Part shown: piece after piece, positions 5,441 through 30,952 of the stretch
Layout of the letters: each line of letters opens with the position of its first letter
Numbering within the stretch: position 1 is the stretch's first letter
Assembly (NCBI RefSeq): GCF_000010625.1
Contig: NC_010296.1
Location: 5,250,001 to 5,282,000, forward strand
Origin: Microcystis aeruginosa NIES-843
GTDB taxonomy: Bacteria; Cyanobacteriota; Cyanobacteriia; Cyanobacteriales; Microcystaceae
DNA length: 32,000 nt
Direction: 5' to 3'
Position numbers and translations under genes: made by a program
Notes under the pieces: model-generated
What the model saw: only the letters and a program-made list of their open reading frames with translations
Database searches by the model: none
What the model was told of the DNA's origin: nothing

Positions 5441-5487
5441 AGAATAGAAGCGCCATTCGATCCCCCCCAACCCCCCTTAAAAAGGGG

Positions 5488-5575
5488 GGAGAAGAGTTCA
5501 TAGTAGGGTGGGTTAGACGGCAACAATCTAGGCGTTAAAGTCAATCTAACAATCCGTCGTAACCCACCGCTTTAG
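5488..5575. mobile_element. 88-bp MITE-like element, copy 2
   Basis: Identical by eye to 5283-5370. Preceded by the hairpin CCCCCCTTAAAAAGGGGGG (5471-5489). Confidence 0.8.
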
Positions 5576-5577
5576 TT

Positions 5578-5621
5578 AACCGAAAGGATGTTTGTCGGTA
5601 TTTAGAGAGGATGTGATGACT
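5578..5621 (+). repeat. Junction repeat R3 (short form) leading into the MNT2 start codon
   Basis: AACCGAAAGGATG-TTTGTCGGTATTTAGAGAGGATGTGATGACT. Lacks the central ~26 nt of R1/R2. Confidence 0.8.
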
Positions 5622-5927
5622 GTAACGACAAAGCAACAGGTAATTAGTCTGCTAGAGCAAAATCAAGCCGAATTACGGCGATTGGGAGTTAGTCGCTGTG
5701 GTTTGTTCGGATCTTTTCGGACAGAGCAGACGACAGAGAAGAGCGATGTGGATATTTTGGTGGTGTTTCAACCCGGGATGAAGACATTTAATAATTTTAT
5801 GGATTTATGTTTCTTTTTGGAGGACTTGTTTGATCGGAGTGTGGATCTGGTTACACCTGAGTCGTTGAGTCCTTTTTTTGGACAACGAATTCTCGATGAG
5901 GTGGAATATGTCCCCTGTAGTTCGTGA
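5616..5927 (+). CDS. Nucleotidyltransferase-domain protein (second MNT-type gene, a different subfamily from 4827-5150), no HEPN/DUF86 partner
   Basis: GLFGSFRTEQTTEKSDVDILVVF plus VDLVTPESL. ATG at 5616 with GAGAGG upstream; the ORF-track start at 5592 is TTG. No partner ORF follows before hsdS. Confidence 0.8.
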   Translation: MTVTTKQQVISLLEQNQAELRRLGVSRCGLFGSFRTEQTTEKSDVDILVVFQPGMKTFNNFMDLCFFLEDLFDRSVDLVTPESLSPFFGQRILDEVEYVPCSS

Positions 5928-5936
5928 GTTTTAGTC

Positions 5937-6014
5937 AACCGAAAGGATGTTTGATTTATGTTTGAAAATAAGATTGATCTGGTTTTACGCGCGTTAAAGG
6001 AGATGTTGGGATGA
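5937..6014 (+). repeat. Junction repeat R4 plus an hsdM-3'-end-like relic that overlaps the hsdS start
   Basis: Left part matches R1/R2. The 18-codon ORF 5958-6014 (MFENKIDLVLRALKEMLG*) resembles the HsdM C-terminus (...DLDALEEMLGD*). It ends in an ATGA overlap with the hsdS ATG at 6011. Confidence 0.7.
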
Positions 6015-7198
6015 AGGATTGGCCATCTGTCGCACTAGGCGATATTTTTGAAATTGCTCGTGGTGGTTCGCCAAGACCGATTCAGAATTTTCTGACAGAA
6101 GAACCTGACGGTGTAAACTGGGTAATGATTGGTGATGCTTCGGATAGTTCAAAATACATTACACACACTAAAAAGCGCATTTTGAAGACTGGTGTTAAGA
6201 ATTCACGCATGGTCTATCCGGGTGATTTTTTACTTACGAATTCCATGAGCTTTGGCCACCCTTATATCATGAAAACATCTGGTTGTATTCATGATGGATG
6301 GCTTGTTTTAAGTAATAAAAAAGGTGTTATTGATCAAGATTATTTTTATCATCTACTAGGTTCTGATCTAATATATGCAGAGTTTTCCCGTCTTGCTTCT
6401 GGTTCAACTGTAAAGAACTTAAATATTGAGATAGTTAAAGGGATTAAGGTATCGCTCCCACCCCTCGAAGAACAGCGAAGAATTGCGGCAATTTTAGATA
6501 AAGCAGATGGGGTGCGACGCAAGCGCAAAGAGGCGATTCGGTTGACTGAGGAGTTGTTAAAATCGACTTTCCTAGAGATGTTCGGTGATCCTGTTACTAA
6601 TCCGAAAGGGTGGGAGGTGAAGCGTCTCGGTGAAATATGTACAAATTTTCAAAACGGAATAGGAAAAAATAGTGAACACTATGGTCATGGCTCTAAGGTT
6701 GCAAACATATCTGACTTGTACGAATGGCATCGTTTCATTCCAGAAAAGTATTCACTTCTCGACGTAACTCCAAAAGAGATTGAAAAATATAGTCTCATGA
6801 GAGGAGATCTGCTATTTGTACGTTCTTCAGTAAAGCGTGAAGGGGTTGCTGTATGTTCTGTTTATGATTCTGATGAGATTTGCCTTTTCAGTTCATTTAT
6901 GATCCGAGTCAGGCCGAGGACAGACCTGATTAATCCAGAGTTTTTATCTTTAATGCTTAGAACTCCACCGATGAGAAATAGACTGATTTTAGGTTCTAAC
7001 ACATCTACAATCACTAATATTTCACAGCCAGGATTATCCAAAATTGAGGTCGTTGTTCCTCCTATCAAGACACAAAATCTAATTACAAAAGTTACGAAAA
7101 ATATCGAAGAATCTGTTCGGTGTCATCTTCAGGCGCTTGAACAATCCGAAAATCTCTTTAATTCCCTTTTACAAAGAGCATTTAGGGGGGAACTGTAG
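6011..7198 (+). CDS. hsdS: Type I restriction-modification specificity subunit
   Basis: Two variable target-recognition halves separated by a conserved central helix (LPPLEEQRRIAAILDKADGVRRKRKEAIRLTEELLKSTFLEMFGDP). Conserved C-terminal helix (LFNSLLQRAFRGEL). Confidence 0.9.
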   Translation: MKDWPSVALGDIFEIARGGSPRPIQNFLTEEPDGVNWVMIGDASDSSKYITHTKKRILKTGVKNSRMVYPGDFLLTNSMSFGHPYIMKTSGCIHDGWLVLSNKKGVIDQDYFYHLLGSDLIYAEFSRLASGSTVKNLNIEIVKGIKVSLPPLEEQRRIAAILDKADGVRRKRKEAIRLTEELLKSTFLEMFGDPVTNPKGWEVKRLGEICTNFQNGIGKNSEHYGHGSKVANISDLYEWHRFIPEKYSLLDVTPKEIEKYSLMRGDLLFVRSSVKREGVAVCSVYDSDEICLFSSFMIRVRPRTDLINPEFLSLMLRTPPMRNRLILGSNTSTITNISQPGLSKIEVVVPPIKTQNLITKVTKNIEESVRCHLQALEQSENLFNSLLQRAFRGEL

Positions 7199-7418
7199 CC
7201 ATGGCAGCCGGCGGATTACTGCCATAATCTTGTGGGAAATGCCATTAAAAAAGACCGTTGGACAATTAACCAAGATTCCTATCATCTCACACTGTCACGC
7301 GGGAAAACCCTAGATAAAATAACCGAACTTGCTGTTTTTTTATATAACTGTTAAACAATAATCAGGTAAAATATAGAGATAGCCAAAACTTTGGGGATAA
7401 TAGACTGGGGAGCGCAAT

Positions 7419-10400
7419 ATGGACTCAAACTTCTCCTTCCTGCGAGATCAATTCCCGACAATCTACGATCATGCCAGCCAAGCGGAGGGATTAGTCTTCA
7501 GTAACCCCCGGGCCAGTTGCTTCTATACCCGTTTTGTCCTAGAACAAATGGTCTGCTGGCTCTATGAAAACGACCCCTACCTGCAACCGCCCCGGGACAA
7601 TAGCCTAGGCGCTCTCATCCACGAGCAAACCTTTAAAGATAACCTTAAACCTGGACTTTTCGGCAAAATTCGCACCATCCACAAAGTCGGCAACAACGCC
7701 GCCCACGATACCAGCCCCATCAGTGAACGGGACTCCCTGCACCTGATCGAGGAACTATTTCATCTCACCTACTGGCTGGTGCGCTACTATGGGCAGAATG
7801 GGCGAGAATTGGGCGATATTCGCTTCGATCGCCAGAAGATACCCCCGGCCGCACCCCCCGCTCCCAAACAACTGCAAGACCTGGAAAAACGCCTGTCCCA
7901 AAGCGATGCCCTGCGCCAATTGGCCGAAGCAAAACAGCGCCAAACCGAGGCCGAACTGGCAGCCGCTAGGGCCGAACGGGATGCCCTCCTCGCCCAAAAT
8001 CAAGCGATCGCTGACCGGCACGACTACAACGAAGCCGACACCCGCCGCTACCTGATCGATGTACTACTCCAAGAAGCCGGCTGGGATACCAAAGCCCCCA
8101 ACGCCACAGAGTTCGAGGTGTGGGGGATGCCCATCCAACAAGCGGGGGATACTGGGCGCGGTTTCGTCGATTATGTACTATGGGGCGACGACGGCAAACC
8201 CCTCGCCCTCGTGGAGGCAAAACGCAGCAGCAAAAGCCCCGACAGCGGCCAAAATCAGGCCAAACTCTACGCCGACTGCTTAGAAAAAGACTACAACCAA
8301 CGCCCCGTTATTTTCTACAGCAACGGCTATGAAACCTATCTCTGGGATGATCTCACCTATCCCCCCCGTCCCGTCCTCGGTTTCCTGCGAAAAACCGAGC
8401 TAGAACGGCTAATTTTCCGCCGTTCCCACCGTAAACGCCTCAGCAACACCGCCATTAACGAGGATATTGTCGGCCGTCCCTACCAGAAAGAGGCCATCCG
8501 CCGCATTACCGAAACCTTTGAAGAAAAGTGCGCCCGTAAGTCCCTGTTGGTTATGGCCACGGGAACCGGTAAAACCCGAACTGCGATCGCATTGGTGGAA
8601 CTGCTCAAGAGTGCCAATTGGGTAAACCGAGTCCTGTTTCTGGCCGATCGCAATGCCCTATTAAAGCAAGCCTATCGAGCCTTTCAGCGTCATCTACCCA
8701 GCGTTACCGTCCTGCATCTGACCCGCAGCAAGGACGTGACGGGGGCTAACGTCCTCTTCTCCACCTATCAAACCATGCTCAACGCCATCGATCGCATGGA
8801 TGCAGAGGGGCGAATCTTTGGGGTGGGTTATTTTGACCTAGTGATCGTCGATGAGGCCCATCGCTCCATTTATCAGAAATACGGCGAAATATTCGATTAT
8901 TTCGATGCCCTGCTGGTGGGGCTAACTGCCACGCCGCGCTCGGAAATAGACCGGGACACCTACCGCATTTTCCAGCTACCCCAGGGCGTGCCTACCTTCG
9001 CCTACGAGTTAAATGATGCCGTTAGGGATGGCCACCTCGTCCCCCCCAAGGGCGTTACTGTGCCGTTTAAGTTTCTGCGTACTGGGGTTAAATACAGTGA
9101 GCTAACCCCACAGGAGCGGCTAGACTACGAGGAGAAGTTCCGGGACGAGGAAAGCGGCGAACTACCGCAGGCAATTAACGCAGCTGCCTTTAATGACTGG
9201 TTGTTCAATATCGACACCGTGGATCAAGCATTAGAATTATTGATGCAACGGGGGCTAAAGGTCAACAGTGGCGATCGATTGGGTAAAACGATTATTTTTG
9301 CCCGTAATCACCGACACGCCCAATGTATCTGCGATCGCTTTAACAGTAACTATCCTCACTACAAAGGTCATTTCGCCAAAATTATTGACAGTCACGACAA
9401 TTACGCCCAGAGTCTGCTCGATGACTTCAGCGAAGCCAACAAAGAACCGATTTTGGCCGTCTCGGTGGATATGCTCGATACCGGCGTAGATGTGCCGGAA
9501 GTGGTCAATTTGGTGTTTTTTAAGCCCGTATTCTCCCGGGTGAAGTTCAATCAGATGATCGGGCGCGGGACCCGTCTCTGTCAGGATTTGTTTGGGACTG
9601 GCAACCATAAAACCGAGTTTCTGGTCTTTGACCTCTGCGGGAATTTCGAGTATTTCGAGCAGGATATCGATGAAACAAGCCAGAAAATACCCGAAAGCCT
9701 CACCAGTCGCCTAGTTAAACATCGCCTCGAGTTGGCAACCCGCCTCGCTCCCTCCAAGCCAAGCGCGACACCTAGGGCAAGAGAGCAGTCCTCTACTTAC
9801 AAAGTCGAGCGGGCCGGCGACCTATACACGAGTTTGCTCGATGCACTCCATCAACACATCGCCACCATGCCCCGGGATAATTTCCTCGTGCGTCGTCGCT
9901 TGCCGCAGGTGGAGACCTTTAGTCAGCGTCAGCGTTGGAACAACCTGAGTCAGGAGGACGCGGCCACCATTGCCGACTGCTTGGCCGGTTTACCCAATAG
10001 TCTGCCCAATGAGGATCCCCTGGCCAAGGAATTCGACCTTCTCTGCGTGAAACTGCAATTAGCCATTCTCAAGGCCGACCGTAGTTATGAGCGATTGCGG
10101 GACAAAGTGCGGGATATTCTCGGTCAACTGGAGACTAAGCCCGATATCCCGATGATTAAGGGACAATTGGCCTTTATTCGCGAGGTGCAGGACGAAAGCT
10201 GGTGGACCGGCGCAACGCCGTCAATGGTGGAGGGGATTCGGGTGCGTGTCCGGGATCTGGTCAAGTTTATTGATCGCCAAAAGCAGCAGATCGTGATCAC
10301 CGATTTTGTCGATGAGATGGGGGAGGTGCAGATTGTCGATATTCCCACCCATCAGACCGGTTTTAGTCGCGAACAGTATCGCCGGAAAGTGGAGGCCTAT

Positions 10401-10865
10401 ATCCGTCAGCATCAGGATCACCTTGCGATCGCTAAGTTGCGGCGCAATCTCCCCCTAACGGAGACGGATTTATCTGCCCTAGAGGAGATGCTATTTTCGG
10501 CCGCAGAAATTGAGAGCCGTCAGCGTTTTGAGGAGGTTTTTGGCCAGACAAAAAGCCTCAAGCTCCTGATCCTGGAAATCGTCGGACTTGATCCCGCAGG
10601 GATCCGCGTAGCGGCACGCCAGGCGGCTAAACAAGCTTTTGCCCGTTATTTGCAGGGGACAAACTTCTCGGCCAATCAAATCCGTTTTATCGAAAATATC
10701 ATCGATATGCTCGCTAAAAACGGAGTTATCAATCCGGGGGCGCTCTACGAGCCTCCTTTTACTGATAACCATCCCGAAGGGCTAGATGGGATGTTTAATG
10801 ATGGGGAAGCTGATCGGATCGTCTCGATTTTGCGATCGTTTAATGAGTCCGTTGATGCGGTCTAA
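7419..10865 (+). CDS. hsdR: Type I restriction enzyme R subunit with an N-terminal DUF4145-like domain and a coiled-coil extension
   Basis: PD-(D/E)XK nuclease motif (GFVDYVLW...LVEAKRS). Helicase motifs I MATGTGKT, II VIVDEAHRS, III GLTATP. EcoEI-R-like C-terminal region. 1148 aa. Confidence 0.95.
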   Translation: MDSNFSFLRDQFPTIYDHASQAEGLVFSNPRASCFYTRFVLEQMVCWLYENDPYLQPPRDNSLGALIHEQTFKDNLKPGLFGKIRTIHKVGNNAAHDTSPISERDSLHLIEELFHLTYWLVRYYGQNGRELGDIRFDRQKIPPAAPPAPKQLQDLEKRLSQSDALRQLAEAKQRQTEAELAAARAERDALLAQNQAIADRHDYNEADTRRYLIDVLLQEAGWDTKAPNATEFEVWGMPIQQAGDTGRGFVDYVLWGDDGKPLALVEAKRSSKSPDSGQNQAKLYADCLEKDYNQRPVIFYSNGYETYLWDDLTYPPRPVLGFLRKTELERLIFRRSHRKRLSNTAINEDIVGRPYQKEAIRRITETFEEKCARKSLLVMATGTGKTRTAIALVELLKSANWVNRVLFLADRNALLKQAYRAFQRHLPSVTVLHLTRSKDVTGANVLFSTYQTMLNAIDRMDAEGRIFGVGYFDLVIVDEAHRSIYQKYGEIFDYFDALLVGLTATPRSEIDRDTYRIFQLPQGVPTFAYELNDAVRDGHLVPPKGVTVPFKFLRTGVKYSELTPQERLDYEEKFRDEESGELPQAINAAAFNDWLFNIDTVDQALELLMQRGLKVNSGDRLGKTIIFARNHRHAQCICDRFNSNYPHYKGHFAKIIDSHDNYAQSLLDDFSEANKEPILAVSVDMLDTGVDVPEVVNLVFFKPVFSRVKFNQMIGRGTRLCQDLFGTGNHKTEFLVFDLCGNFEYFEQDIDETSQKIPESLTSRLVKHRLELATRLAPSKPSATPRAREQSSTYKVERAGDLYTSLLDALHQHIATMPRDNFLVRRRLPQVETFSQRQRWNNLSQEDAATIADCLAGLPNSLPNEDPLAKEFDLLCVKLQLAILKADRSYERLRDKVRDILGQLETKPDIPMIKGQLAFIREVQDESWWTGATPSMVEGIRVRVRDLVKFIDRQKQQIVITDFVDEMGEVQIVDIPTHQTGFSREQYRRKVEAYIRQHQDHLAIAKLRRNLPLTETDLSALEEMLFSAAEIESRQRFEEVFGQTKSLKLLILEIVGLDPAGIRVAARQAAKQAFARYLQGTNFSANQIRFIENIIDMLAKNGVINPGALYEPPFTDNHPEGLDGMFNDGEADRIVSILRSFNESVDAV

Positions 10866-10893: not shown

Positions 10894-11772
10894 ATGAAAA
10901 CTGACACGATTTTTTATCAACTCTTTCAATCATTCCCCTCTATCTTCTTTGAATTAATTCAACTCCCTATCAGCGAAGCGAATAACTACCGCTTTGACTC
11001 AGTGGAAGTCAAACAACTTTCCTTTCGTCTTGATGGAGTCTTTCTGCCTCAAAATAATCACCCCCAGACTCCTATCTACTTCTGTGAGGTACAATTTCAA
11101 GAAGATGAGGCTTTTTATCAGCGCTTTTTCACCGAAATATTCTTATATCTCAGTAAAACTGACTTAACCAATGATTGGCGGGGTGTGATTGTCTATCCTA
11201 ACCCTCAAGTAGAAACCGATAAAGTTCAACGCTATCGGGAACTTCTCAACTCCGAGCGAGTGAGACGGATTTATCTGAATGAATTAGAAAACATTCCTCA
11301 AACTTCGATTGGTTTAGCTACAGTCCAATTAATCACCCTATCTAAAGCAAAAGCGATTGATAGCACCCGAAAATTAATCCAAAGAGTGCGGCAAGAATTA
11401 ACCCCCGACCAAAAACCGCAAGAACTCTTACAATTAATAGAGACGATTCTCGTTTATAAGTTACCGCTTCTCAATCGTCGGGAGATAGAAACTATGTTTA
11501 GTTTAGATGAATTAAAACAGACTCAGTATTTTCAAGATGTGCGCGAAGAAGCGCGTCAGGAAGGTCGTCAGGAAGGCATTGAGCAAGGCATTGAGCAAGG
11601 CATTGAGCAAGGCATTGAGCAAGGCATTGAGCAAGGTATTGAGCAAGGCAGACTAAACAAAGCACTAGAGGCGGTCCCTCGTTTGTTAGCCTTAGGGTTA
11701 AGTGTTGAGCAAGTCGCATCCGCGTTAGAGTTAGAGGTTGAACAGGTTAGAGCTATACAAAACGGGACATAA
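10894..11772 (+). CDS. Rpn (YhgA-like)/DUF2887-type PD-(D/E)XK recombination-promoting nuclease/putative transposase family protein, tandem copy 1 (292 aa, 6 GIEQ repeats)
   Basis: N-terminus MKTDTIFYQLFQ, a putative nuclease core (RLDGVF...IYFCEVQFQ) and a C-terminal helix-rich tail after a QEGR/GIEQ linker. Family assignment is by pattern recognition only. Starts 28 nt after the hsdR stop. Confidence 0.75.
   Translation: MKTDTIFYQLFQSFPSIFFELIQLPISEANNYRFDSVEVKQLSFRLDGVFLPQNNHPQTPIYFCEVQFQEDEAFYQRFFTEIFLYLSKTDLTNDWRGVIVYPNPQVETDKVQRYRELLNSERVRRIYLNELENIPQTSIGLATVQLITLSKAKAIDSTRKLIQRVRQELTPDQKPQELLQLIETILVYKLPLLNRREIETMFSLDELKQTQYFQDVREEARQEGRQEGIEQGIEQGIEQGIEQGIEQGIEQGRLNKALEAVPRLLALGLSVEQVASALELEVEQVRAIQNGT
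11575..11646 (+). repeat. In-frame 12-bp tandem repeat GGCATTGAGCAA x6 (encodes GIEQ)
   Basis: Six contiguous units; the last one reads GGTATTGAGCAA. Confidence 0.95.
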
Positions 11773-11835
11773 AAAAATGTGATCGCCTTGTGAAATAAAA
11801 GCATGAAAACTGACACGATTTTTTATCAACTCTTT

Positions 11836-13053
11836 AGACCTCTTGCATAATTTTTTTATGGTATAATATAAGGTTTTGCTTTTTTCTCAATTCTTAGATT
11901 GAAGTGGAAAAAAGAATAAAATGTGATCTTAGGTCAGGAAATCATCTATAATTTTGCTATGTTTATTAGCAAAATTATGGATTATCAAAACTTATCAGAT
12001 GAACAATTCAAACGCCGTTTCGGTGTGTATAAACAAACCTATAGAAAGATGGTAGAATCAGTAAAAAGTGTTGAAGCCGACTCTAATTCACCATCTAAAA
12101 GGGGACCGAAACCTAAACTATCTATAGAAGAACAAGTTTTAGTAACGTTAGAATATTGGCGAGAATATAGAACATATTTTCACATTGGTACAAGCTGGGA
12201 ACTATCAGAATCAACTATATGTCGGATTGTAAATAAGACGGAAAAAATGCTTTTACAATCGGGAAACTTCCGTTTAAAAGGAAAAAAAGCTTTACTCAAT
12301 CAAGCAGAGATACCGGTCATAACGGTAATGGATGTAACGGAAACTCCCATTGAACGCCCCCAAAAGAAACAGAAAGATTTTTTTTCGGGTAAAAGAGGTT
12401 ATCATACTTTAAAATCCCAATTAGTAGCTGATCAAAATACAAAGGAAATTATCTGTGTCTTTTGTGGGAAAGGTAGAGGTCATGATTTTAGTTTATTTAA
12501 AAAAAGTCGAGTTCGTTTTCATCCTTTAACTACCAGCATAGAAGACAGTGGTTATCAGGGAATAGCTGCATACCATAGTAATAGTTATACACCGAAAAAG
12601 AAATCGAAAAATAGAAAATTAACAGAGTTAGAAAAAGAGTATAACAAGGCTTTAGCCAAAGAAAGGATTATCATTGAACATATAAATAGGAAACTCAAAA
12701 TCTTTAAAATCTTATCCTGTAAATATCGGAATCGTCGTCGAAGATATAGTTTAAGAGTTAACTTGTTGGCGGCTATTTATAACTGTGAGTTAGGGATAGG
12801 TATAGCAGCTTCTTAAAAGTTGCCTAAAGATTAATCAAGTCAAGGAGAATTTATTCTCAATTTTTATAATTGAGATAGTTTGTGCCGCTTAAATAAAGAG
12901 GTTTTGATAACCAAATTAAAGCAGCTCTAAAGAGTTTTGAGTTAAAAGTTAAACTTCAAGTTTTCATTCAGGACAAATGTACTGATTAACTAATTTTTTG
13001 GGGAAAATTAGTTAACCCATCATTATAACATATAATTAATTTGCAAGAGTTCT
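11836..13053 (+). mobile_element. Insertion sequence (~1218 bp), IS5/Harbinger-like DDE family
   Basis: Imperfect terminal inverted repeats AGACCTCTTGCATAAT... / ...ATTTGCAAGAGTTCT. Flanked by duplicated TTT (11833-11835 and 13054-13056). Single transposase ORF. AT-rich. Confidence 0.85.
11977..12816 (+). CDS. IS5/Harbinger-like DDE transposase (HTH plus DDE_Tnp_4-like domain)
   Basis: Candidate DDE residues in MDVTETPIERP, IEDSGYQGI and RIIIEHINRKLKIFKIL. N-terminal HTH region (RGPKPKLSIEEQVLVTLEYWREYRTY). ATG at 11977 is preferred over the GTG at 11923. Confidence 0.85.
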   Translation: MDYQNLSDEQFKRRFGVYKQTYRKMVESVKSVEADSNSPSKRGPKPKLSIEEQVLVTLEYWREYRTYFHIGTSWELSESTICRIVNKTEKMLLQSGNFRLKGKKALLNQAEIPVITVMDVTETPIERPQKKQKDFFSGKRGYHTLKSQLVADQNTKEIICVFCGKGRGHDFSLFKKSRVRFHPLTTSIEDSGYQGIAAYHSNSYTPKKKSKNRKLTELEKEYNKALAKERIIIEHINRKLKIFKILSCKYRNRRRRYSLRVNLLAAIYNCELGIGIAAS

Positions 13054-13848
13054 TTTCAATCTTTCCCCTCTATCTTCTTTGAATTAATTCAACTCCCTAT
13101 CAGCGAAGCGAATAACTACCGCTTTGACTCAGTGGAAGTCAAACAACTTTCCTTTCGTCTTGATGGAGTCTTTCTGCCTCAAAATAATCACCCCCAGACT
13201 CCTATCTACTTCTGTGAGGTACAATTTCAAGAAGATGAGGCTTTTTATCAGCGCTTTTTCACCGAAATATTCTTATATCTCAGTAAAACTGACTTAACCA
13301 ATGATTGGCGGGGTGTGATTGTCTATCCTAACCCTCAAGTAGAAACCGATAAAGTTCAACGCTATCGGGAACTTCTCAACTCCGAGCGAGTGAGACGGAT
13401 TTATCTGAATGAATTAGAAAACATTCCTCAAACTTCGATTGGTTTAGCTACAGTCCAATTAATCACCCTATCTAAAGCAAAAGCGATTGATAGCACCCGA
13501 AAATTAATCCAAAGAGTGCGGCAAGAATTAACCCCCGACCAAAAACCGCAAGAACTCTTACAATTAATAGAGACGATTCTCGTTTATAAGTTACCGCTTC
13601 TCAATCGTCGGGAGATAGAAACTATGTTTAGTTTAGATGAATTAAAACAGACTCAGTATTTTCAAGATGTGTGCGAAGAAGCGCGTCAGGAAGGCAGACT
13701 AAACAAAGCACTAGAGGCGGTCCCTCGTTTGTTAGCCTTAGGGTTAAGTGTTGAGCAAGTCGCATCCGCGTTAGAGTTAGAGGTTGAACAGGTTAGAGCT
13801 ATACAAAACGGGACATAAAAAAATGCGATCGCCTTGTGAAATAAAAGC

Positions 13849-14667
13849 ATGAAAACTGACACGATTTTTTATCAACTCTTTCAATCTTTCCCCTCTATCT
13901 TCTTTGAATTAATTCAACTCCCTATCAGCGAAGCGAATAACTACCGCTTTGACTCAGTGGAAGTCAAACAACTTTCCTTTCGTCTTGATGGAGTCTTTCT
14001 GCCTCAAAATAATCACCCCCAGACTCCTATCTACTTCTGTGAGGTACAATTTCAAGAAGATGAGGCTTTTTATCAGCGCTTTTTCACCGAAATATTCTTA
14101 TATCTCAGTAAAACTGACTTAACCAATGATTGGCGGGGTGTGATTGTCTATCCTAACCCTCAAGTAGAAACCGATAAAGTTCAACGCTATCGGGAACTTC
14201 TCAACTCCGAGCGAGTGAGACGGATTTATCTGAATGAATTAGAAAACATTCCTCAAACTTCGATTGGTTTAGCTACAGTCCAATTAATCACCCTATCTAA
14301 AGCAAAAGCGATTGATAGCACCCGAAAATTAATCCAAAGAGTGCGGCAAGAATTAACCCCCGACCAAAAACCGCAAGAACTCTTACAATTAATAGAGACG
14401 ATTCTCGTTTATAAGTTACCGCTTCTCAATCGTCGGGAGATAGAAACTATGTTTAGTTTAGATGAATTAAAACAAACTCAGTATTTTCAAGATGTGCGCG
14501 AGGAAGCGCGTCAGGAAGGTCGCGAGGAAGGTCGTCAGGAAGGCAGACTAAACAAAGCACTAGAGGCTGTCCCTCGTTTGTTAGCCTTAGGGTTAAGTGT
14601 TGAGCAAGTCGCATCCGCGTTAGAGTTAGAGGTTGAACAGGTTAGAGCTATACAAAACGGGACATAA
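13849..14667 (+). CDS. Rpn/DUF2887-type nuclease, tandem copy 3 (272 aa, 0 GIEQ, one extra EGRE/EGRQ unit)
   Basis: Near-identical to copy 1 outside the linker, which reads QEGREEGRQEGRLNK. Confidence 0.75.
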   Translation: MKTDTIFYQLFQSFPSIFFELIQLPISEANNYRFDSVEVKQLSFRLDGVFLPQNNHPQTPIYFCEVQFQEDEAFYQRFFTEIFLYLSKTDLTNDWRGVIVYPNPQVETDKVQRYRELLNSERVRRIYLNELENIPQTSIGLATVQLITLSKAKAIDSTRKLIQRVRQELTPDQKPQELLQLIETILVYKLPLLNRREIETMFSLDELKQTQYFQDVREEARQEGREEGRQEGRLNKALEAVPRLLALGLSVEQVASALELEVEQVRAIQNGT

Positions 14668-14697
14668 AAAAATGCGATCGCCTTGTGAAATAAAAGC

Positions 14698-15564
14698 ATG
14701 AAAACTGACACGATTTTTTATCAACTCTTTCAATCTTTCCCCTCTATCTTCTTTGAATTAATTCAACTCCCTATCAGCGAAGCGAATAACTACCGCTTTG
14801 ACTCAGTGGAAGTCAAACAACTTTCCTTTCGTCTTGATGGAGTCTTTCTGCCTCAAAATAATCACCCCCAGACTCCTATCTACTTCTGTGAGGTACAATT
14901 TCAAGAAGATGAGGCTTTTTATCAGCGCTTTTTCACCGAAATATTCTTATATCTCAGTAAAACTGACTTAACCAATGATTGGCGGGGTGTGATTGTCTAT
15001 CCTAACCCTCAAGTAGAAACCGATAAAGTTCAACGCTATCGGGAACTTCTCAACTCCGAGCGAGTGAGACGGATTTATCTGAATGAATTAGAAAACATTC
15101 CTCAAACTTCGATTGGTTTAGCTACAGTCCAATTAATCACCCTATCTAAAGCAAAAGCGATTGATAGCACCCGAAAATTAATCCAAAGAGTGCGGCAAGA
15201 ATTAACCCCCGACCAAAAACCGCAAGAACTCTTACAATTAATAGAGACGATTCTCGTTTATAAGTTACCGCTTCTCAATCGTCGGGAGATAGAAACTATG
15301 TTTAGTTTAGATGAATTAAAACAAACTCAGTATTTTCAAGATGTGCGCGAAGAAGCGCGTCAGGAAGGTCGCGAGGAAGGCATTGAGCAAGGCATTGAGC
15401 AAGGCATTGAGCAAGGCATTGAGCAAGGTATTGAGCAAGGCAGACTAAACAAAGCATTAGAGGCGGTCCCTCGTTTGTTAGCCTTAGGGTTAAGTGTTGA
15501 GCAAGTCGCATCCGCGTTAGAGTTAGAGGTTAAACAGGTTAGAGCTATACAAAACGGGACATAA
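14698..15564 (+). CDS. Rpn/DUF2887-type nuclease, tandem copy 4 (288 aa, 5 GIEQ)
   Basis: Near-identical to copy 1. The 30-nt spacer upstream contains a HIP1 site (GCGATCGC). Confidence 0.75.
   Translation: MKTDTIFYQLFQSFPSIFFELIQLPISEANNYRFDSVEVKQLSFRLDGVFLPQNNHPQTPIYFCEVQFQEDEAFYQRFFTEIFLYLSKTDLTNDWRGVIVYPNPQVETDKVQRYRELLNSERVRRIYLNELENIPQTSIGLATVQLITLSKAKAIDSTRKLIQRVRQELTPDQKPQELLQLIETILVYKLPLLNRREIETMFSLDELKQTQYFQDVREEARQEGREEGIEQGIEQGIEQGIEQGIEQGRLNKALEAVPRLLALGLSVEQVASALELEVKQVRAIQNGT
15379..15438 (+). repeat. In-frame 12-bp tandem repeat GGCATTGAGCAA x5
   Basis: Five contiguous units inside copy 4. Confidence 0.95.
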
Positions 15565-15594
15565 AAAAATGTGATCGCCTTGTAAAATAAAAGC

Positions 15595-16437
15595 ATGAAA
15601 ACTGACACGATTTTTTATCAACTCTTTCAATCATTCCCCTCTATCTTCTTTGAATTAATTCAACTCCCTATCAGCGAAGCGAATAACTACCGCTTTGACT
15701 CAGTGGAAGTCAAACAACTTTCTTTTCGTCTTGATGGAGTCTTTCTGCCTCAAAATAATCACCCCCAGACTCCTATCTACTTCTGTGAGGTACAATTTCA
15801 AGAAGATGAGGCTTTTTATCAGCGCTTTTTCACTGAAATATTCTTATATCTCAGTAAAACTGACTTAACCAATGATTGGCGGGGTGTGATTGTCTATCCT
15901 AACCCTCAAGTAGAAACCGATAAAGTTCAACGCTATCGGGAACTTCTCAACTCCGAGCGAGTGAGACGGATTTATCTGAATGAATTAGAAAACATTCCTC
16001 AAACTTCGATTGGTTTAGCTACAGTCCAATTAATCACCCTATCTAAAGCAAAAGCGATTGATAGCACCCGAAAATTAATCCAAAGAGTGCGGCAAGAATT
16101 AACCCCCGACCAAAAACCGCAAGAACTCTTACAATTAATAGAGACGATTCTCGTTTATAAGTTACCGCTTCTCAATCGTCGGGAGATAGAAACTATGTTT
16201 AGTTTAGATGAATTAAAACAAACTCAGTATTTTCAAGATGTGCGCGAAGAAGCGCGTCAGGAAGGTCGCGAGGAAGGCATTGAGCAAGGCATTGAGCAAG
16301 GCATTGAGCAAGGCAGACTAAACAAAGCACTAGAGGCTGTCCCTCGTTTGTTAGCCTTAGGGTTAAGCGTTGAGCAAGTCGCATCTGCGTTAGAGTTAGA
16401 GGTTAAACAGGTTAGAGCTATACAAAACGGGACATAA
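15595..16437 (+). CDS. Rpn/DUF2887-type nuclease, tandem copy 5 (280 aa, 3 GIEQ)
   Basis: Near-identical to copy 1. Last unit of the array, followed by a ~240-nt unique tail. Confidence 0.75.
   Translation: MKTDTIFYQLFQSFPSIFFELIQLPISEANNYRFDSVEVKQLSFRLDGVFLPQNNHPQTPIYFCEVQFQEDEAFYQRFFTEIFLYLSKTDLTNDWRGVIVYPNPQVETDKVQRYRELLNSERVRRIYLNELENIPQTSIGLATVQLITLSKAKAIDSTRKLIQRVRQELTPDQKPQELLQLIETILVYKLPLLNRREIETMFSLDELKQTQYFQDVREEARQEGREEGIEQGIEQGIEQGRLNKALEAVPRLLALGLSVEQVASALELEVKQVRAIQNGT
16276..16311 (+). repeat. In-frame 12-bp tandem repeat GGCATTGAGCAA x3
   Basis: Three contiguous units inside copy 5. Confidence 0.95.
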
Positions 16438-27268: not shown

Positions 27269-27435
27269 CGAGTTTTTCCGTCATACACAGTATCCTGCTT
27301 TTGATTTTAACGTAATCGGGTTGACCGATTGCGTGGGGGTATTTTTAGCTAGGTTCGTCCCCAAGAATCTCTCATCGACTGCTAGAAAATTGACATCTCC
27401 CCGTTCTCAAGAGATGGGAATTCTCATCGGTGATC

Positions 27436-27540
27436 CTAAATCTGGTTATTAAAAACTGATTATTTATTCCCCCTTTTGCCTATTCCCTGTTGCACGAGTG
27501 CCTGTCCTTATAAGTAGCCTATAATCAACGGATTTTGTAT
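27436..27540 (+). mobile_element. ~100-bp MITE-like repeat, left copy (CTAAATC...CAACGGATTTTGTAT)
   Basis: About 90% identical by hand alignment (9 mismatches, one 7-nt indel) to the reverse complement of 30683-30780. Its own short terminal inverted repeats are CTAAATCC.GTT / AAC.GGATTTAG. Confidence 0.8.
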
Positions 27541-27946
27541 GACTAGAAGCGGGTTGAAACTGGACTTCTACTCGATTACGATATATTTTAGAAAGCCTGA
27601 CTAACTTATATTGTTGAGGCATCGTCAAAGATACTCTATCCACCTTATCTAGAGAAACCGCCGGAACGGGCAACACCAGAACAAATGTCAAATCCTGTCA
27701 TCAGCTGCCCGCGCATTTAAATTGCTTGTTCAGATGAGGCACTCTTGCACTCTTGCAACAGTAAAAGGATTGAGGGAGATGTAGCTCATCTAAGGATAGG
27801 CGGTTAAGATGCGTCTTAGCTTACCCAACTTCACGGCGGGTTAATGGTAAGTGTTCAAAGTTAATCGGTCTGATTTTCCCCTGAGTAAGGAAGATTTATC
27901 GAAACTAAGTAGCTGGTTATAATTAAATTAAAAATGGATTTTAAGT

Positions 27947-28036
27947 TCGATCCCCCCTTAATCCCCCCTTGATAAGGGGGGTGCCGATCCCCCCTTAGTC
28001 CCCCCTTTAATCCCCCCTTGATAAGGGGGGTGTCTG
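27947..28036 (+). repeat. Two tandem ~45-bp C/G-run units, each with a CCCCCCTTGATAAGGGGGG hairpin
   Basis: Hairpins at 27963-27981 and 28012-28030. Related CCCCCCTTAAAAAGGGGGG at 5471-5489. Ends 45 nt upstream of the 744-aa ORF. Confidence 0.85.
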
Positions 28037-28080
28037 ATAATTTTTAACGCCTACCTACTTATCACAAACAGTGCTAACCC

Positions 28081-30315
28081 ATGAATCATATTTTTTCTGC
28101 TATTGATTTTCAGGCAATTAAAAATAACCCTAACTTTAAGGAAGACAGCGTTAGAGAAGTGATTATTTTGCCTCTTTTAACAAGTTTGGGCTACCAAGAG
28201 AATAATATCGAAAGAAGTAAAACCCTACGGCATCCCTTTTTAAAGGTTGGCAGTAAAAAACGTCCGATAAATTTAATTCCTGACTATGTTCTCAAAGTTA
28301 ATCAAAGTTATGCTTGGGTATTAGAGGCTAAAAAACCAACGGAAAATATCTACGAAGGTGATTCAGTAGAACAGGTCTATAGTTATGCGAGTCATCCTGA
28401 AATCAGAAGTAATTATTTTGCTCTTTGTAATGGCCTAGAATTTAGTTTATTTAAGACCCTCGATACCAGTACACCTATCTTATATTTTTCTCTTGATGCA
28501 ATTGCCGATAGTTGGCAAGAGTTGACCCAGTATTTAGCGCCAGATAGATTTCAAGTGGGGAAAAGTTTTACCTATCAAAACCATTCCCCAATCAGTCGCA
28601 AAACTTTTGACTACTCAAGTCGTCCCTTATTAGAACCAATTGAGGTAAAAAAACAACAAGCTAAAAGACATTTTGGTGTCCATGGATATTTTACTAAACA
28701 AGCATGGAATGTGGTGGCAGAATATATTAAAAACTTTAGTCAACCGGGAGATGTCATTCTTGATCCTTTTGGCGGTAGTGGAGTGACGGCAATTGAAGCT
28801 TTAATGAATAACCGCAAAGCGATTAGTATTGATATTAACCCTCTGGCTATTTTTCTTGTTAATTCTTTAATTAGTCCCGTTGATTTTGATGATTTAAGTC
28901 AAGCTTTTGAACGAGTTAAATTAGCCTACCAAGAGCGAGAACCGCAAACCAAAGAAGCAATAACAAAGGCACTCAATACCTATCCCTATCCCCAAGGCTT
29001 GAAACTGCCTAAAGGTTCTGATGTAGCTACTGTTGAACAGTTATTTAGTAACAAACAATTAGCTCGACTAAGTTTATTAAAACATTTGATTAAACAAGAA
29101 CTAAACGAGAATATTAGGGAGTCTTTATTGTTAATGTTTTCTGGCTTATTAACTAAAGCTAATTTAACTTATCATAACAATAATCAAAGACCTGCATCTG
29201 GACAAGGAAATGCTTCAGCTTTTCAATATTACCGTTATCGCATAGCACCTAATCCTAAAGATATTGATTTAATTACCTATTTTGAATTGAGATTTAAAAA
29301 GATAGTTGCTGCTAAAAAGGAGATGACGTATTTTATTAATAAAAATACCATCAACTATGCCAAAATTGTTAAAGGAACAGCGACAGACTTAAGTTTTATT
29401 GAAAATGAAAGCGTTGATTATATTTATACCGATCCTCCCTACGGAAAGAAAATTCCCTACTTAGATTTATCAATAATGTGGAATGCTTGGTTAGATTTAG
29501 AAGTGACGGAAAAGGACTATCAATTAGAAGCTATTGAAGGTGGAACAATCCAAAAAAGTAAACAGGAATATAATCAATTAATTGCCCAAAGTATTCGAGA
29601 AATGTATCGAGTTTTGAAATTTGAGCGATGGTTATCCTTTGTCTTTGCTCACAAAGATCCTGAGTTTTGGCATTTAATTTTAGATACCGCAGAAAGTTGC
29701 GGATTTGAATATGTGGGAGCAGTGCCACAAAAAAATGGCCAAACTAGCTTTAAAAAGCGGCAAAATCCCTTTACAGTTTTATCAGGACAGTTAATTATTA
29801 ATTTTCGGAAAGTTCCTACTCCCAAAGCAGTAATGAAAGCTAACTTAGGCATGGATATAACCGAGATTGTCATGCAAACTGTTGAAGGAATTATTGCTAA
29901 AAATGATGGGGCAACCCTAGAACAAATTAACGATGAATTGATTATTAAAGGTTTGGAATTAGGGTTTTTAGATTTACTAGCAAAGGAGTATTCAGACTTG
30001 ACTCCAATTTTGTTAGATAATTTTGATTATGAGGAAAAAACTGAATTATATACCATCAAAAAAGACAGTAAGTTTAAGTCAAAAATCGATGTTAAATTGA
30101 GAATTAAATACTATTTGATTAGCTATTTGAGAAGGATGGAAAGAGATAATAAAAGCTCTAGTTTCGATGATATTGTTTTTAATATATTACCTCTGTTAAA
30201 AAATGGCACAACTCCCGAAAATCAGACGATTCTAAGCGTCCTCGAAGATATTGCCCAGAGAGTTGGTGATGATAACTGGCGCTTAAAACAAGAAGGACAA
30301 TTGAGTTTATTTTAA
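28081..30315 (+). CDS. Single-polypeptide fusion: HsdR-N-like PD-(D/E)XK nuclease domain, DNA N6A/N4C methyltransferase (motif I before DPPY) and a C-terminal domain of unknown function; candidate type IIG-like R-M enzyme
   Basis: Nuclease motif IPDYVL...WVLEAKKP (D68, E82, K84). AdoMet motif GDVILDPFGGSGVTAIEA (aa ~223-240) followed by SIDINP. Catalytic motif DYIYTDPPYG (aa 446-455). AT-rich by eye relative to its neighbours. Confidence 0.75.
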   Translation: MNHIFSAIDFQAIKNNPNFKEDSVREVIILPLLTSLGYQENNIERSKTLRHPFLKVGSKKRPINLIPDYVLKVNQSYAWVLEAKKPTENIYEGDSVEQVYSYASHPEIRSNYFALCNGLEFSLFKTLDTSTPILYFSLDAIADSWQELTQYLAPDRFQVGKSFTYQNHSPISRKTFDYSSRPLLEPIEVKKQQAKRHFGVHGYFTKQAWNVVAEYIKNFSQPGDVILDPFGGSGVTAIEALMNNRKAISIDINPLAIFLVNSLISPVDFDDLSQAFERVKLAYQEREPQTKEAITKALNTYPYPQGLKLPKGSDVATVEQLFSNKQLARLSLLKHLIKQELNENIRESLLLMFSGLLTKANLTYHNNNQRPASGQGNASAFQYYRYRIAPNPKDIDLITYFELRFKKIVAAKKEMTYFINKNTINYAKIVKGTATDLSFIENESVDYIYTDPPYGKKIPYLDLSIMWNAWLDLEVTEKDYQLEAIEGGTIQKSKQEYNQLIAQSIREMYRVLKFERWLSFVFAHKDPEFWHLILDTAESCGFEYVGAVPQKNGQTSFKKRQNPFTVLSGQLIINFRKVPTPKAVMKANLGMDITEIVMQTVEGIIAKNDGATLEQINDELIIKGLELGFLDLLAKEYSDLTPILLDNFDYEEKTELYTIKKDSKFKSKIDVKLRIKYYLISYLRRMERDNKSSSFDDIVFNILPLLKNGTTPENQTILSVLEDIAQRVGDDNWRLKQEGQLSLF

Positions 30316-30682
30316 ATCCAGTGGCAGCACACTTTGTTCTTTTTGTCAAAAAAACTTTCTTTTTGCAACAAAACTACACAATTAATTGATCAACGGGTTG
30401 GCTTAAAAAAGGCTCTTTAACTGCCAGTTGTTGCTGTTGCTGAATAGGTGAGTGTAGATTTAGCAAGGGTTTTCAGGATCACCAGACAGCTAAAAAACCA
30501 AAAAAGCACAGAACGTCCCATCATTTCATACTGCGAAATTATACCATAATCGCTGGAAGTATTGCAACCTCGTAAACAAATGAGAATTATTTTCAATAAA
30601 TTCTTAAGAAAAGATAAATATTGCGAAGTGTAAATTTTAATATGCTCAACTATTAAAGCTTGTTTGATATAAAAAACTTATA

Positions 30683-30780
30683 ATACTAAATCCGTTGAGT
30701 ATAGGCTACATATCAGGACAGGCACTCATGCAAGAGGCAAAAGAGGGAATAAATAATCAGTTTTTAATAACTGGATTTAG
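30683..30780 (-). mobile_element. ~100-bp MITE-like repeat, right copy, inverted relative to 27436-27540
   Basis: Its reverse complement aligns with 27436-27540 end to end. Confidence 0.8.
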
Positions 30781-30805
30781 TATAAGTAGGGAGGCACAAT
30801 TATTT

Positions 30806-30870
30806 GTAGGATGGGTTAGCGGTAGCGTAACCCATGCGGGCGTTGGGTTTCATGCTTCAACCCAACCTAC
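30806..30870. mobile_element. 65-bp palindromic MITE-like element (GTAGGATGGGTT...AACCCAACCTAC)
   Basis: 12-bp terminal inverted repeats (11 of 12 match). Two internal GGGTT/AACCC hairpins. Related to the 5243-5269 and 5298-5362 repeats. Confidence 0.7.
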
Positions 30871-30939
30871 TGATCACTGATTACTGATAACTGATCACTG
30901 ATTACTGATGACTGATTACTGATGACTGATTACTGATGA
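30870..30939 (+). repeat. Heptamer tandem repeat CTGATNA x10
   Basis: Ten contiguous units. Only position 6 varies (C,T,A,C,T,G,T,G,T,G). Same unit and orientation as 22958-23020. Lies just 3' of adk. Confidence 0.95.
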
Positions 30940-30952
30940 TCTGAGAGAAACT

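What the first reader, a model, noticed from the sequence alone, without database searches (positions are those of the whole stretch)
28081..30315. Stand-alone 744-aa fusion of an HsdR-N-type nuclease domain with a permuted DPPY methyltransferase: candidate single-chain R-M or defence enzyme
The N-terminal ~130 aa carry an apparently intact PD-(D/E)XK signature (PDYVL ... LEAKK), of the kind found at the N-terminus of type I R subunits. Next comes an AdoMet-binding block (HGYFTKQAWNVVAEYIKNFSQPGDVILDPFGGSGVTAIEA...SIDINP). About 210 aa later lies the catalytic TDPPYG motif. This motif I to insert to motif IV order is alpha-like. A ~180-aa C-terminal region has no motif I recognise. There is no separate endonuclease, specificity or helicase gene nearby. 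The gene is visibly more AT-rich than its neighbours. It sits between the clpR and adk housekeeping genes amid MITEs, consistent with horizontal acquisition.
Basis: partly seen in the sequence, partly recalled or inferred. Interest (0 to 1): 0.65.

Follow-up and report, generated by a model that had tools for sequence, protein, structure and literature searches.

The report
Stand-alone nuclease–methyltransferase fusion enzyme gene
This Microcystis gene encodes one protein that joins a DNA-cutting domain to a DNA-methylating domain with a swappable target-recognition insert, so it is most likely a self-contained restriction-modification (anti-phage) enzyme from a widespread but, as far as I could find, biochemically untested family.

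Summary
The protein has five parts. (1) An N-terminal HsdR/BpuSI-type PD-(D/E)xK nuclease with D68, E82, K84 and a QxxxY motif. These are invariant in 77/77 orthologues (position 82 is D or E), and the domain's dN/dS is 0.04-0.20. (2) A poorly conserved, low-confidence linker. (3) A PF01555-related methyltransferase whose motifs X-I-II and III-IV(DPPY)-VIII are split by an insert. (4) That insert (aa ~256-435) is hypervariable and replaced by recombination between otherwise near-identical genes, so it is the target-recognition domain. (5) A C-terminal tandem winged-helix module. The methyltransferase layout matches that described for BREX type-3 PglXI/BrxXI. The gene stands alone in 80 genome loci from about 15 phyla. 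It is present or absent at the same adk-clpR site in different Microcystis genomes and is AT-rich relative to its hosts. Sister proteins lack the N-terminal nuclease and instead carry a C-terminal NmeDI_C restriction-endonuclease module. The best reading is a single-chain (type IIC/IIG-like) restriction-modification enzyme on an unusual methyltransferase chassis. Cleavage, methylation and the recognition site are all untested.

The parts
28081..30315 (+). Complete gene for the 744-aa nuclease-methyltransferase fusion protein
   Evidence: ORF; homologues
28081..28560 (+). N-terminal PD-(D/E)xK nuclease domain (aa 1-160) of HsdR_N/BpuSI type. Helix-1 E21; D68 (28282-28284); E82 (28324-28326); K84 (28330-28332); QxxxY motif Q98/Y102 (28372-28386)
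   Evidence: Pfam HSDR_N above gathering score. Profile hit to RM.BpuSI 3S1S at E 0.002 with motifs aligned. hhalign to the window's own HsdR, probability 81%, E 1e-5. PADLOC REase_MTase_IIG E 3e-7. Residues invariant in 77/77 orthologues, position 82 being D or E and kept in distant homologues. dN/dS 0.04-0.20
28561..28665 (+). Variable linker (aa 161-195), probably flexible, between the nuclease and the methyltransferase
   Evidence: pLDDT 28-38 in the model; lowest conservation of any segment (51% close, 21% distant); highest entropy
28666..28845 (+). Methyltransferase motifs X-I-II (aa 196-255): HGYFTKQ (motif X), DPFGGSG (motif I, 28762-28782), SIDIN (motif II)
   Evidence: Matches the C-terminal part of PF01555 (positions 159-213) and the motif X-I region of RsrI/CcrM/MboIIA; near-invariant
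28846..29385 (+). Nested hypervariable insert (aa ~256-435), read as the target-recognition domain
   Evidence: Lies between core strands 2 and 3 in the model. In pairs with 88-96% identical scaffolds it is only 50-55% identical. 54 clusters at 75% identity among 77 sequences. Its dS is 2-2.5 times that of the scaffold in the three pairs with unsaturated scaffold dS. Same position as the TRD described for BrxXI
29386..29814 (+). Methyltransferase motifs III-VIII (aa 436-578), including the catalytic DPPY (aa 451-454, 29431-29442)
   Evidence: PF01555 positions 1-50 and RsmD/Trm14/UPF0020 motif III-IV matches; PADLOC PglXI E 1e-41 over aa 314-576; DPPY invariant 77/77
29815..30312 (+). C-terminal tandem winged-helix module (aa 579-744), probably DNA-binding
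   Evidence: Domain model pLDDT 81.9, pTM 0.73, two helix-helix-helix-strand-strand units. The listed Foldseek PDB matches are overwhelmingly winged-helix domains, with weak E-values of 0.04-0.4. dN/dS 0.008-0.12. No Pfam or PADLOC match
27383..30323 (.). About 2.9-kb segment present in this strain and absent from empty-site Microcystis genomes. The left edge lies between 27315 and 27383. The right edge coincides with the stop codon
   Evidence: blastn against empty sites L095 and L099 and occupied sites L091 and L094

Best explanation
The gene encodes a self-sufficient single-chain restriction-modification enzyme, type IIC/IIG-like in REBASE terms. Shown by sequence comparison: (1) an N-terminal HsdR/BpuSI-type PD-(D/E)xK nuclease with all catalytic motifs; (2) a methyltransferase related to PF01555 and built like BREX type-3 PglXI/BrxXI; (3) a hypervariable insert nested after core strand 2 that is exchanged as a cassette; (4) a C-terminal tandem winged-helix module. 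Inferred mechanism: the nested insert, probably helped by the winged helices, reads a specific DNA sequence. The DPPY methyltransferase then methylates a base in that sequence on host DNA, most likely N6-adenine. When the site is unmethylated, as on incoming phage or plasmid DNA, the nuclease cuts the DNA. Because the nuclease hangs on a variable ~35-residue linker, cutting is probably at a short distance from the site, as in other single-chain enzymes with N-terminal nucleases. New specificities arise when the insert is replaced by recombination on a strongly conserved chassis. The gene is an accessory, horizontally acquired element in Microcystis.
For: Nuclease: Pfam HSDR_N above threshold. 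The best PDB sequence hit of the domain profile is the type IIG enzyme RM.BpuSI, aligned through D/ExK/QxxxY. hhalign aligns the same residues to the window's own HsdR. The best PADLOC hit is REase_MTase_IIG. QxxxY is a functional HsdR/RecB-family motif (abstract of PMC2475608). D68, K84, Q98 and Y102 are invariant in 77/77 intact orthologues and position 82 is always D or E; the motifs persist in 38-48%-identical homologues. Nuclease dN/dS is 0.04-0.20. Methyltransferase: motifs X, I and DPPY are invariant or nearly so; PglXI match E 1e-41; the nested-TRD layout matches that described in PMC12839542. Specificity diversification: the insert is decoupled from the scaffold (96% against 53% identity) and its dS is 2-2.5 times higher. 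Two copies in contigs binned to one MAG differ mainly in the insert. Autonomy: no recurrent neighbour in 80 loci from about 15 phyla. Module swapping: sister proteins lack the N-terminal nuclease, carry a C-terminal NmeDI_C module instead, and are also stand-alone. R.NmeDI is a characterised enzyme that cuts at a distance from its site. Accessory status: presence/absence at the adk-clpR site; AT-rich relative to flanks in 36/40 loci.
Against: No biochemical or methylome evidence was available for any member. The recognition site, the methylated base and any cleavage are all inferred. The methyltransferase part matched no PADLOC type IIG model among the 25 best families listed, so the type IIG similarity I could show rests on the nuclease domain only. 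The full-length structure model is mediocre (pLDDT 66.7) and its fold search gave only generic Rossmann hits. An enzyme with restriction and modification in one chain, scattered between housekeeping genes with synonymous sites saturated between phyla, is also compatible with a non-defence role. I could not query REBASE, so a characterised member may exist.
Confidence: 0.65

Rival explanations
1. It is a solitary (orphan) DNA methyltransferase. The HsdR-like N-terminal domain would then not act as a restriction nuclease and would serve instead as a DNA-binding, nicking, repair or regulatory module.
For: The gene sits alone between housekeeping genes in many genomes. The chassis is under very strong purifying selection with saturated dS between phyla, as for long-resident genes. 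Inactive REase folds used as sensors are reported in related BREX/BR systems (PMC12839542).
Against: All nuclease catalytic residues including QxxxY are invariant, whereas the inactive REase domains described have degenerate motifs. Hypervariable, recombining specificity inserts and two differently specified copies in contigs binned to one MAG are typical of restriction systems and not of orphan methylases. Relatives replace the domain with another restriction-endonuclease module and do not simply lose it. The gene is accessory in Microcystis.
Confidence: 0.2
2. It is one component of a multi-gene system whose partners are unlinked. Examples would be working with the type I HsdM/S/R encoded at 3336-10865 in this window, or acting as the methylase of a BREX/BR-like system.
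For: The methyltransferase core is closest to PglXI and DUF1156 methylases, which work inside multi-gene systems. A type I R-M system lies 17 kb away in the window.
Against: No pglZ, brxC, DUF499, helicase, hsdS or hsdM gene recurs within 5 kb in 80 loci; the largest neighbour cluster is generic ABC ATPases in 8 loci. Contexts in Sphingobacteriales, Cyanobacterium DS4, Nitrospirae and Planktothrix are all housekeeping genes. The protein carries its own nuclease, TRD and DNA-binding module.
Confidence: 0.07
3. It is an RNA (m2G-type) methyltransferase, as some automatic annotations state (RsmD, Trm11).
For: JGI names several homologues RsmD or Trm11. Weak matches to UPF0020, RsmD and Trm14 occur around motifs III-IV. 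The Foldseek top hits of the poor full-length model are Trm11 and MnmM.
Against: The motif X-I block (HGYFTKQ...DPFGGSG) matches PF01555 DNA methylases and RsrI/CcrM/MboIIA. The strongest matches are DNA methylases of defence systems (PglXI 1e-41, MTase_II models). Fusion to a DNA nuclease and winged helices, plus a hypervariable recognition insert, makes no sense for a conserved rRNA or tRNA target.
Confidence: 0.03

Closest known systems
Type IIG/IIC single-chain restriction-modification enzymes with N-terminal PD-(D/E)xK nucleases (RM.BpuSI, PDB 3S1S; also the MmeI and Eco57I families)
   Same: One polypeptide with the nuclease at the N-terminus followed by a methyltransferase and recognition elements, and no ATPase or helicase. 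The nuclease domain is homologous to that of BpuSI with aligned D/ExK/Qxx(x)Y residues and to the PADLOC type IIG model. Specificity is diversified on a conserved scaffold.
   Different: From my own knowledge, the characterised type IIG enzymes use a gamma-class N6_Mtase/Eco57I/MmeI-type methyltransferase with a C-terminal TRD. Here the methyltransferase is PF01555-related, the TRD is nested after core strand 2, and a tandem winged helix lies at the C-terminus. Among the PADLOC families listed, type IIG similarity rests on the nuclease domain only.
BREX type-3 methyltransferase PglXI/BrxXI and the DUF1156 'BR' methyltransferases (PMC12839542)
   Same: Best PADLOC match (E 1e-41, aa 314-576) and a weak NCBIfam DUF1156_antiphage match. 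The layout is the same: TRD inserted after core strand 2 and HTH/winged-helix domains after the methyltransferase core.
   Different: Those enzymes are about 900-1000 aa, lack a nuclease, have three C-terminal HTH-like domains, and work inside multi-gene loci (PglZ, BrxC or DUF499, helicase). This protein is 744 aa, has two winged helices and its own N-terminal active-looking nuclease, and is encoded alone.
Type I restriction subunit HsdR (e.g. EcoR124I; the window's own HsdR at 7419-10865)
   Same: Same nuclease family (Pfam HSDR_N), with motifs I-III and QxxxY aligned.
   Different: There is no SF2 translocase, no HsdM/HsdS partners and no ATP-binding motifs. The nuclease is fused directly to a methyltransferase.
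Sister clade: the same methyltransferase chassis with a C-terminal NmeDI_C module (e.g. P0278 Planktothrix, P0279 Microcystis)
   Same: Homologous over aa ~180-744 (35-43% identity), including the nested insert and winged helices. Also stand-alone.
   Different: These proteins lack the N-terminal HsdR-type nuclease. They carry a ~190-aa C-terminal domain with an invariant E...(Q)ID...FExE...RF pattern, classified as Pfam PF27126 NmeDI_C.

Membership tests
Type IIC/IIG restriction-modification enzymes | Nuclease and methyltransferase domains in one polypeptide | tested here: met
   HSDR_N at aa ~20-128 and N6_N4_Mtase motifs at aa 195-254 and 445-519 in one 744-aa ORF
Type IIC/IIG restriction-modification enzymes | Catalytically competent nuclease motifs | tested here: met
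   D68, K84, Q98 and Y102 invariant in 77/77 orthologues, position 82 always D or E; aligned to BpuSI and HsdR catalytic positions
Type IIC/IIG restriction-modification enzymes | Own sequence-recognition element (TRD), with no separate S subunit needed | tested here: met
   Nested hypervariable, recombining insert at aa 256-435; no recurrent hsdS-like neighbour. This is inference from variation, not binding data
Type IIC/IIG restriction-modification enzymes | No ATP-dependent translocase | tested here: met
   No helicase or ATPase family matched in Pfam, NCBIfam or PADLOC
Type IIC/IIG restriction-modification enzymes | Site-specific cleavage at or near the site, and an effect of AdoMet on cleavage | not testable with these tools
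   Requires biochemistry
Type IIC/IIG restriction-modification enzymes | Gamma-class (N6_Mtase/Eco57I/MmeI-type) methyltransferase, as in the characterised members (typical rather than formally defining; my own knowledge) | tested here: not met
   No N6_Mtase, Eco57I or MmeI_Mtase Pfam hit; the domain is PF01555-related and PglXI-like
BREX type-3 PglXI/BrxXI methyltransferase | Methyltransferase with TRD nested after core strand 2 and C-terminal HTH-like domains | tested here: met
   (two winged helices here, against three HTH-like domains described)
BREX type-3 PglXI/BrxXI methyltransferase | Encoded in a BREX locus with pglZ, brxC, brxHII and others | tested here: not met
   No such genes next to the gene in the window or in the 80 loci
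Type I HsdR | HSDR_N nuclease followed by an SF2 helicase motor (ResIII/Helicase_C) | tested here: not met
   Nuclease present, motor absent. The window's genuine HsdR shows both
Pfam PF01555 (beta-class N6/N4 DNA methyltransferases) | Linear order motif IV...VIII-TRD-X-I | tested here: not met
   The order here is X-I-II-[insert]-III-IV...VIII. The profile's C-terminal part matches before its N-terminal part

The most novel reading that the evidence does not exclude
This gene would represent an uncharacterised class of modular single-chain restriction-modification enzymes spanning many phyla. The class would be built on the BREX type-3 (PglXI/BrxXI) methyltransferase chassis. It would have a cassette-like nested TRD that is exchanged by recombination. 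It would also have interchangeable cleavage modules: HsdR-type at the N-terminus or NmeDI_C at the C-terminus. If so, it links BREX-type methylases to classical restriction enzymes in evolution and offers a large natural library of new specificities on one conserved scaffold.
Probability: 0.4. Interest if true: 0.6.

Novelty: new variant of a known kind. Interest (0 to 1): 0.5.

Why it matters
If the enzyme works as inferred, it widens the known design space of single-chain restriction-modification enzymes. It would combine a different methyltransferase class, an internal recognition cassette and a choice of two cleavage modules. The chassis is very conserved: 82-84% identity in the methyltransferase core among close orthologues from many phyla, and dN/dS of about 0.03-0.08. 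The recognition insert varies freely, with at least 54 types among 77 genes. The family could therefore be mined or engineered for new DNA specificities, as was done for the MmeI family. It would also explain some unassigned methylation motifs in bloom-forming cyanobacteria and in Bacteroidota, and would add to the strain-to-strain differences in phage and DNA-uptake barriers in Microcystis.

Tried and rejected
(1) The full-length AlphaFold model from 39 close homologues had mean pLDDT of only 66.7. Its Foldseek PDB search gave generic Rossmann methyltransferases (Trm11, MnmM), with BsaXI and DrdV only at low probability. It was not useful for classification.

(2) I considered whether the 108-nt inverted repeat bracketing the gene marks a mobile cassette, and rejected this. 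The right arm is also present in empty-site genomes, and both this repeat and the C-rich element are dispersed Microcystis MITEs.

(3) No target-site duplication was seen at the indel junctions.

(4) Plasmids and phages as carriers: no close homologue in PLSDB or INPHARED, only methyltransferase-core relatives below 30% identity. Only 2 IMG/VR contigs carry the gene.

(5) A stand-alone copy of the N-terminal domain on a Nostoc plasmid has no adjacent methylase, so it is uninformative.

(6) The group-2 C-terminal module matched nothing in PDB sequences or the local Pfam copy. Its identity came only from precomputed newer Pfam hits.

(7) Promoter, terminator and Rfam scans around the gene found nothing above chance.

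(8) Literature searches for a Microcystis methylome, MADS mad2 and the BpuSI paper failed through database time-outs. Statements about BpuSI beyond the alignment rest on my own knowledge.

(9) REBASE could not be queried.
Full report
**Observation.** The ORF at 28081-30315 (+) is real: 744 aa with an ATG start. PDYVL is at aa 67-71, LEAKK at 81-85, FGGSG at 230-234 and TDPPYG at 450-455. The gene is AT-rich, with GC 0.337 against 0.447 for the rest of the window. It lies between a Clp-protease-family gene and adk.

Pfam reports HSDR_N above its gathering score. It also reports a split N6_N4_Mtase match in which the profile's C-terminal part (motifs X-I) precedes its N-terminal part (motif IV). 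This confirms a permutation relative to beta-class methylases.

**N-terminal domain.** Four independent comparisons place it with HsdR-type and type IIG nucleases:
- Pfam HSDR_N scores 32 bits on the isolated domain.
- A profile of diverse N-terminal domains has RM.BpuSI (3S1S), a single-chain type IIG enzyme, as its best PDB sequence hit. The E-value is 0.002 and the alignment runs through D, ExK and Q..SY.
- hhalign against the window's own type I HsdR gives probability 81% and E 1e-5, with the helix-1 E, DY, EAK and Q...Y aligned.
- The best PADLOC family is REase_MTase_IIG, at E 3e-7.

The QxxxY motif is characteristic of HsdR/RecB-family nucleases (abstract of PMC2475608). D68, K84, Q98 and Y102 are invariant in 77 of 77 intact orthologues, and position 82 is always D or E. 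All 27 representative clusters that carry the domain keep the (D/E)AK and QxxxY motifs. This includes full-length homologues of only 38-48% identity. dN/dS for the domain is 0.04-0.20.

**Methyltransferase.** Motif X (HGYFTKQ) and motif I (DPFGGSG) match beta-class DNA methylases such as RsrI, CcrM and MboIIA. DPPY is invariant.

The model and HMM matches give the order strand 1, strand 2, a ~170-aa insert, then strand 3 directly followed by strand 4 and DPPY. This is not the classical alpha order, in which the TRD follows motif III.

The best PADLOC family is PglXI, the BREX type-3 methylase (E 1e-41). NCBIfam gives a weak DUF1156_antiphage match. A 2026 comparative study describes exactly this layout for BrxXI/PglXI and the DUF1156 'BR' methylases: the TRD is nested after core strand 2, and HTH-like domains follow the core (PMC12839542).

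**The insert is the specificity element.** Among 77 orthologues the methyltransferase core is 82-84% identical to the window protein, but the insert only 59%.
- Pairs with 88-96% identical scaffolds have inserts only 50-55% identical (L053/L080, L037/L080, L033/L057).
- Two copies on separate contigs binned to one Prevotellaceae MAG are 89-94% identical in the nuclease, motif III-VIII and C-terminal domains, but 51% in the insert.
- The variable block runs from about aa 255 to 435.
- In the three such pairs where scaffold dS is not saturated, the insert's synonymous divergence (dS 1.4-1.7) is 2-2.5 times that of the scaffold (0.57-0.75). The insert therefore has a separate genealogy and was replaced by recombination.
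- Single-linkage clustering at 75% identity gives 54 insert types among 77 sequences.

A conserved chassis with exchangeable recognition cassettes is the pattern of restriction systems. It is not the pattern of housekeeping orphan methylases.

**C-terminal region.** A domain-only model built from 64 diverse sequences is confident (pLDDT 81.9, pTM 0.73). It shows two helix-helix-helix-strand-strand units. The listed Foldseek matches are overwhelmingly winged-helix domains: Rpc5 tandem WHD, cullin WH-B, ADAR1 Z-beta, IdeR/DtxR/Fur, PadR and Rok. Their E-values are weak, at 0.04-0.4. I read this region as a tandem winged-helix module, probably DNA-binding, parallel to the HTH-like C-terminus of BrxXI. 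The fold class is reasonably supported; the function is inferred.

**Autonomy and distribution.** Full-length homologues of 65-97% identity occur in 80 retrieved genome loci (259 species hits). By record titles these span about 15 phyla: Cyanobacteria, Bacteroidota, Nitrospirae, Planctomycetes, Spirochaetes, Chloroflexi, Acidobacteria, Elusimicrobia, several proteobacterial classes and others. Clustering all neighbouring ORFs within 5 kb finds no recurrent partner. The largest cluster is generic ABC ATPases, in 8 loci. Annotated contexts in three phyla are unrelated housekeeping genes. All 77 full-length copies that could be translated have no internal stop codon. Between phyla dS is saturated while dN is about 0.2. 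The high protein identity therefore reflects strong constraint (scaffold dN/dS 0.03-0.08) and not only recent transfer.

**Status in Microcystis.** Genomes with the same ClpR protein show the gene between adk and clpR in some (L091, L094) and adk directly next to clpR in others (L095, L099). The segment that differs is about window 27383-30323. Its right edge falls at the stop codon, and no target-site duplication is visible. The flanking 108-nt inverted repeat and the C-rich element are dispersed MITEs that also occur at unrelated sites, so they are not the vehicle. In 36 of 40 loci the gene is more AT-rich than its flanks. Close homologues are absent from sequenced plasmids and phages. In one 31-kb IMG/VR contig the gene lies beside a large serine recombinase.

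**Sister architecture.** An exhaustive search found many ~760-830-aa relatives that match aa ~180-744 from their own N-terminus. They lack the HsdR-type domain and carry an extra ~190-aa C-terminal module with invariant E...(Q)ID...FExE...RF. Precomputed hits name this module Pfam PF27126 NmeDI_C. R.NmeDI is a characterised type II endonuclease that cuts at a distance on both sides of its site (PMC2095814). These proteins are also stand-alone and also occur in Microcystis. The same chassis thus carries a restriction-endonuclease-type module at one end or the other. This is hard to explain unless the fusion's purpose is cleavage coupled to methylation.

**Interpretation.** The best-supported reading is a single-chain, type IIC/IIG-like restriction-modification enzyme (confidence about 0.65).
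- Shown: the domain identities, intact motifs, purifying selection, autonomy, cassette-like TRD and accessory status.
- Inferred: methylation of a specific motif (probably m6A, given DPPY and the PglXI relationship), cleavage of unmodified DNA, and cutting at a distance through the flexible linker.

The rivals are less likely:
- An orphan methylase with a non-restriction N-terminal domain (0.2).
- A component of an unlinked multi-gene system (0.07).
- An RNA methylase, as some automatic annotations state (0.03).

**Comparison with known systems.** The protein works like a type IIG enzyme and shares their nuclease. Its methyltransferase, however, is not the gamma-class domain of the characterised type IIG families. 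It is the PglXI/BrxXI type, yet the gene is not in a BREX locus. It is therefore best described as a new variant of a known kind. I could not query REBASE and several literature searches failed, so a characterised member cannot be excluded.

**Score.** Interest is 0.5. The finding is solid and coherent, with a clear experimental path and some value for enzyme discovery. Nuclease-methylase fusions as such would not surprise a specialist.

Noticed in passing
window 3336-10865: A complete type I restriction-modification system: hsdM (3336-4823), hsdS (6011-7198, two Methylase_S domains) and hsdR (7419-10865, DUF4145+HSDR_N+ResIII+EcoEI_R_C). The strain therefore carries at least two restriction systems within 32 kb.
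   Followed up: partly
window 10894-16437: A tandem array of five DUF2887 paralogues directly downstream of hsdR (10894-11772, 13132-13818 truncated at the N-terminus, 13849-14667, 14698-15564, 15595-16437). It is interrupted by a DDE transposase (11923-12816) in the most AT-rich part of the window. The same HsdR-DUF2887 association appears in another Microcystis genome (L092).
   Followed up: no
window 27908-28059: A 152-bp C-rich repeat element containing CCCCCCTTGATAAGGGGGG twice, ending 21 nt upstream of the start codon. It is absent from the otherwise collinear Microcystis loci with the gene (L091, L094), and no copy was found in any other gene-carrying Microcystis locus retrieved (L010, L011, L068). 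It could alter the gene's expression in this strain.
   Followed up: partly
window 27433-27540 and 30683-30783: Two copies of a 108-nt MITE in inverted orientation bracket the gene (84-88% identity). The right copy is also present in empty-site genomes and further copies occur at unrelated loci, so the bracketing is coincidental.
   Followed up: yes
window 30868-30940: A heptamer tandem repeat (ACTGATN)n, about 10 units, in the intergenic region just upstream of the end of adk.
   Followed up: no
L099 6901-6955 (empty adk-clpR site): The empty site in one Microcystis genome holds a different small palindromic element (TTAGTGTCA...TGACACTAA). The intergenic spot thus appears to be a hot spot for small insertions.
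   Followed up: no
P0271-P0319, L102, L104: A sister family with the same methyltransferase chassis, a C-terminal NmeDI_C (PF27126) module and no N-terminal nuclease. It is stand-alone and also abundant in Microcystis (P0279, 220 member sequences) and Planktothrix.
   Followed up: partly
L107 725-5255: In a 31-kb IMG/VR contig the orthologue (66% identity) lies immediately downstream of a 543-aa large serine recombinase/integrase. Integrative elements may therefore occasionally carry the gene.
   Followed up: partly
L007 8657-9187: In a Nitrospirae MAG a separate 176-aa HSDR_N_2 protein is encoded about 400 bp downstream of the orthologue on the opposite strand. A Nostoc plasmid (L100 4328-5203) encodes a stand-alone protein 44% identical to the N-terminal domain.
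   Followed up: no
one search hit table: Many homologues are automatically named '16S rRNA G966 N2-methylase RsmD' or 'tRNA G10 N-methylase Trm11' by one source. These names are almost certainly mis-annotations driven by the shared DPPY/Rossmann motifs.
   Followed up: partly
(PADLOC mad2, PDLC04134): The N-terminal nuclease region weakly matches the N-terminal part of the MADS methyltransferase mad2 (E 0.023), and the full protein matches mad2 at 1.7e-13. mad2 may share a nuclease-like N-terminus plus methylase layout. The literature check failed through time-outs.
   Followed up: no
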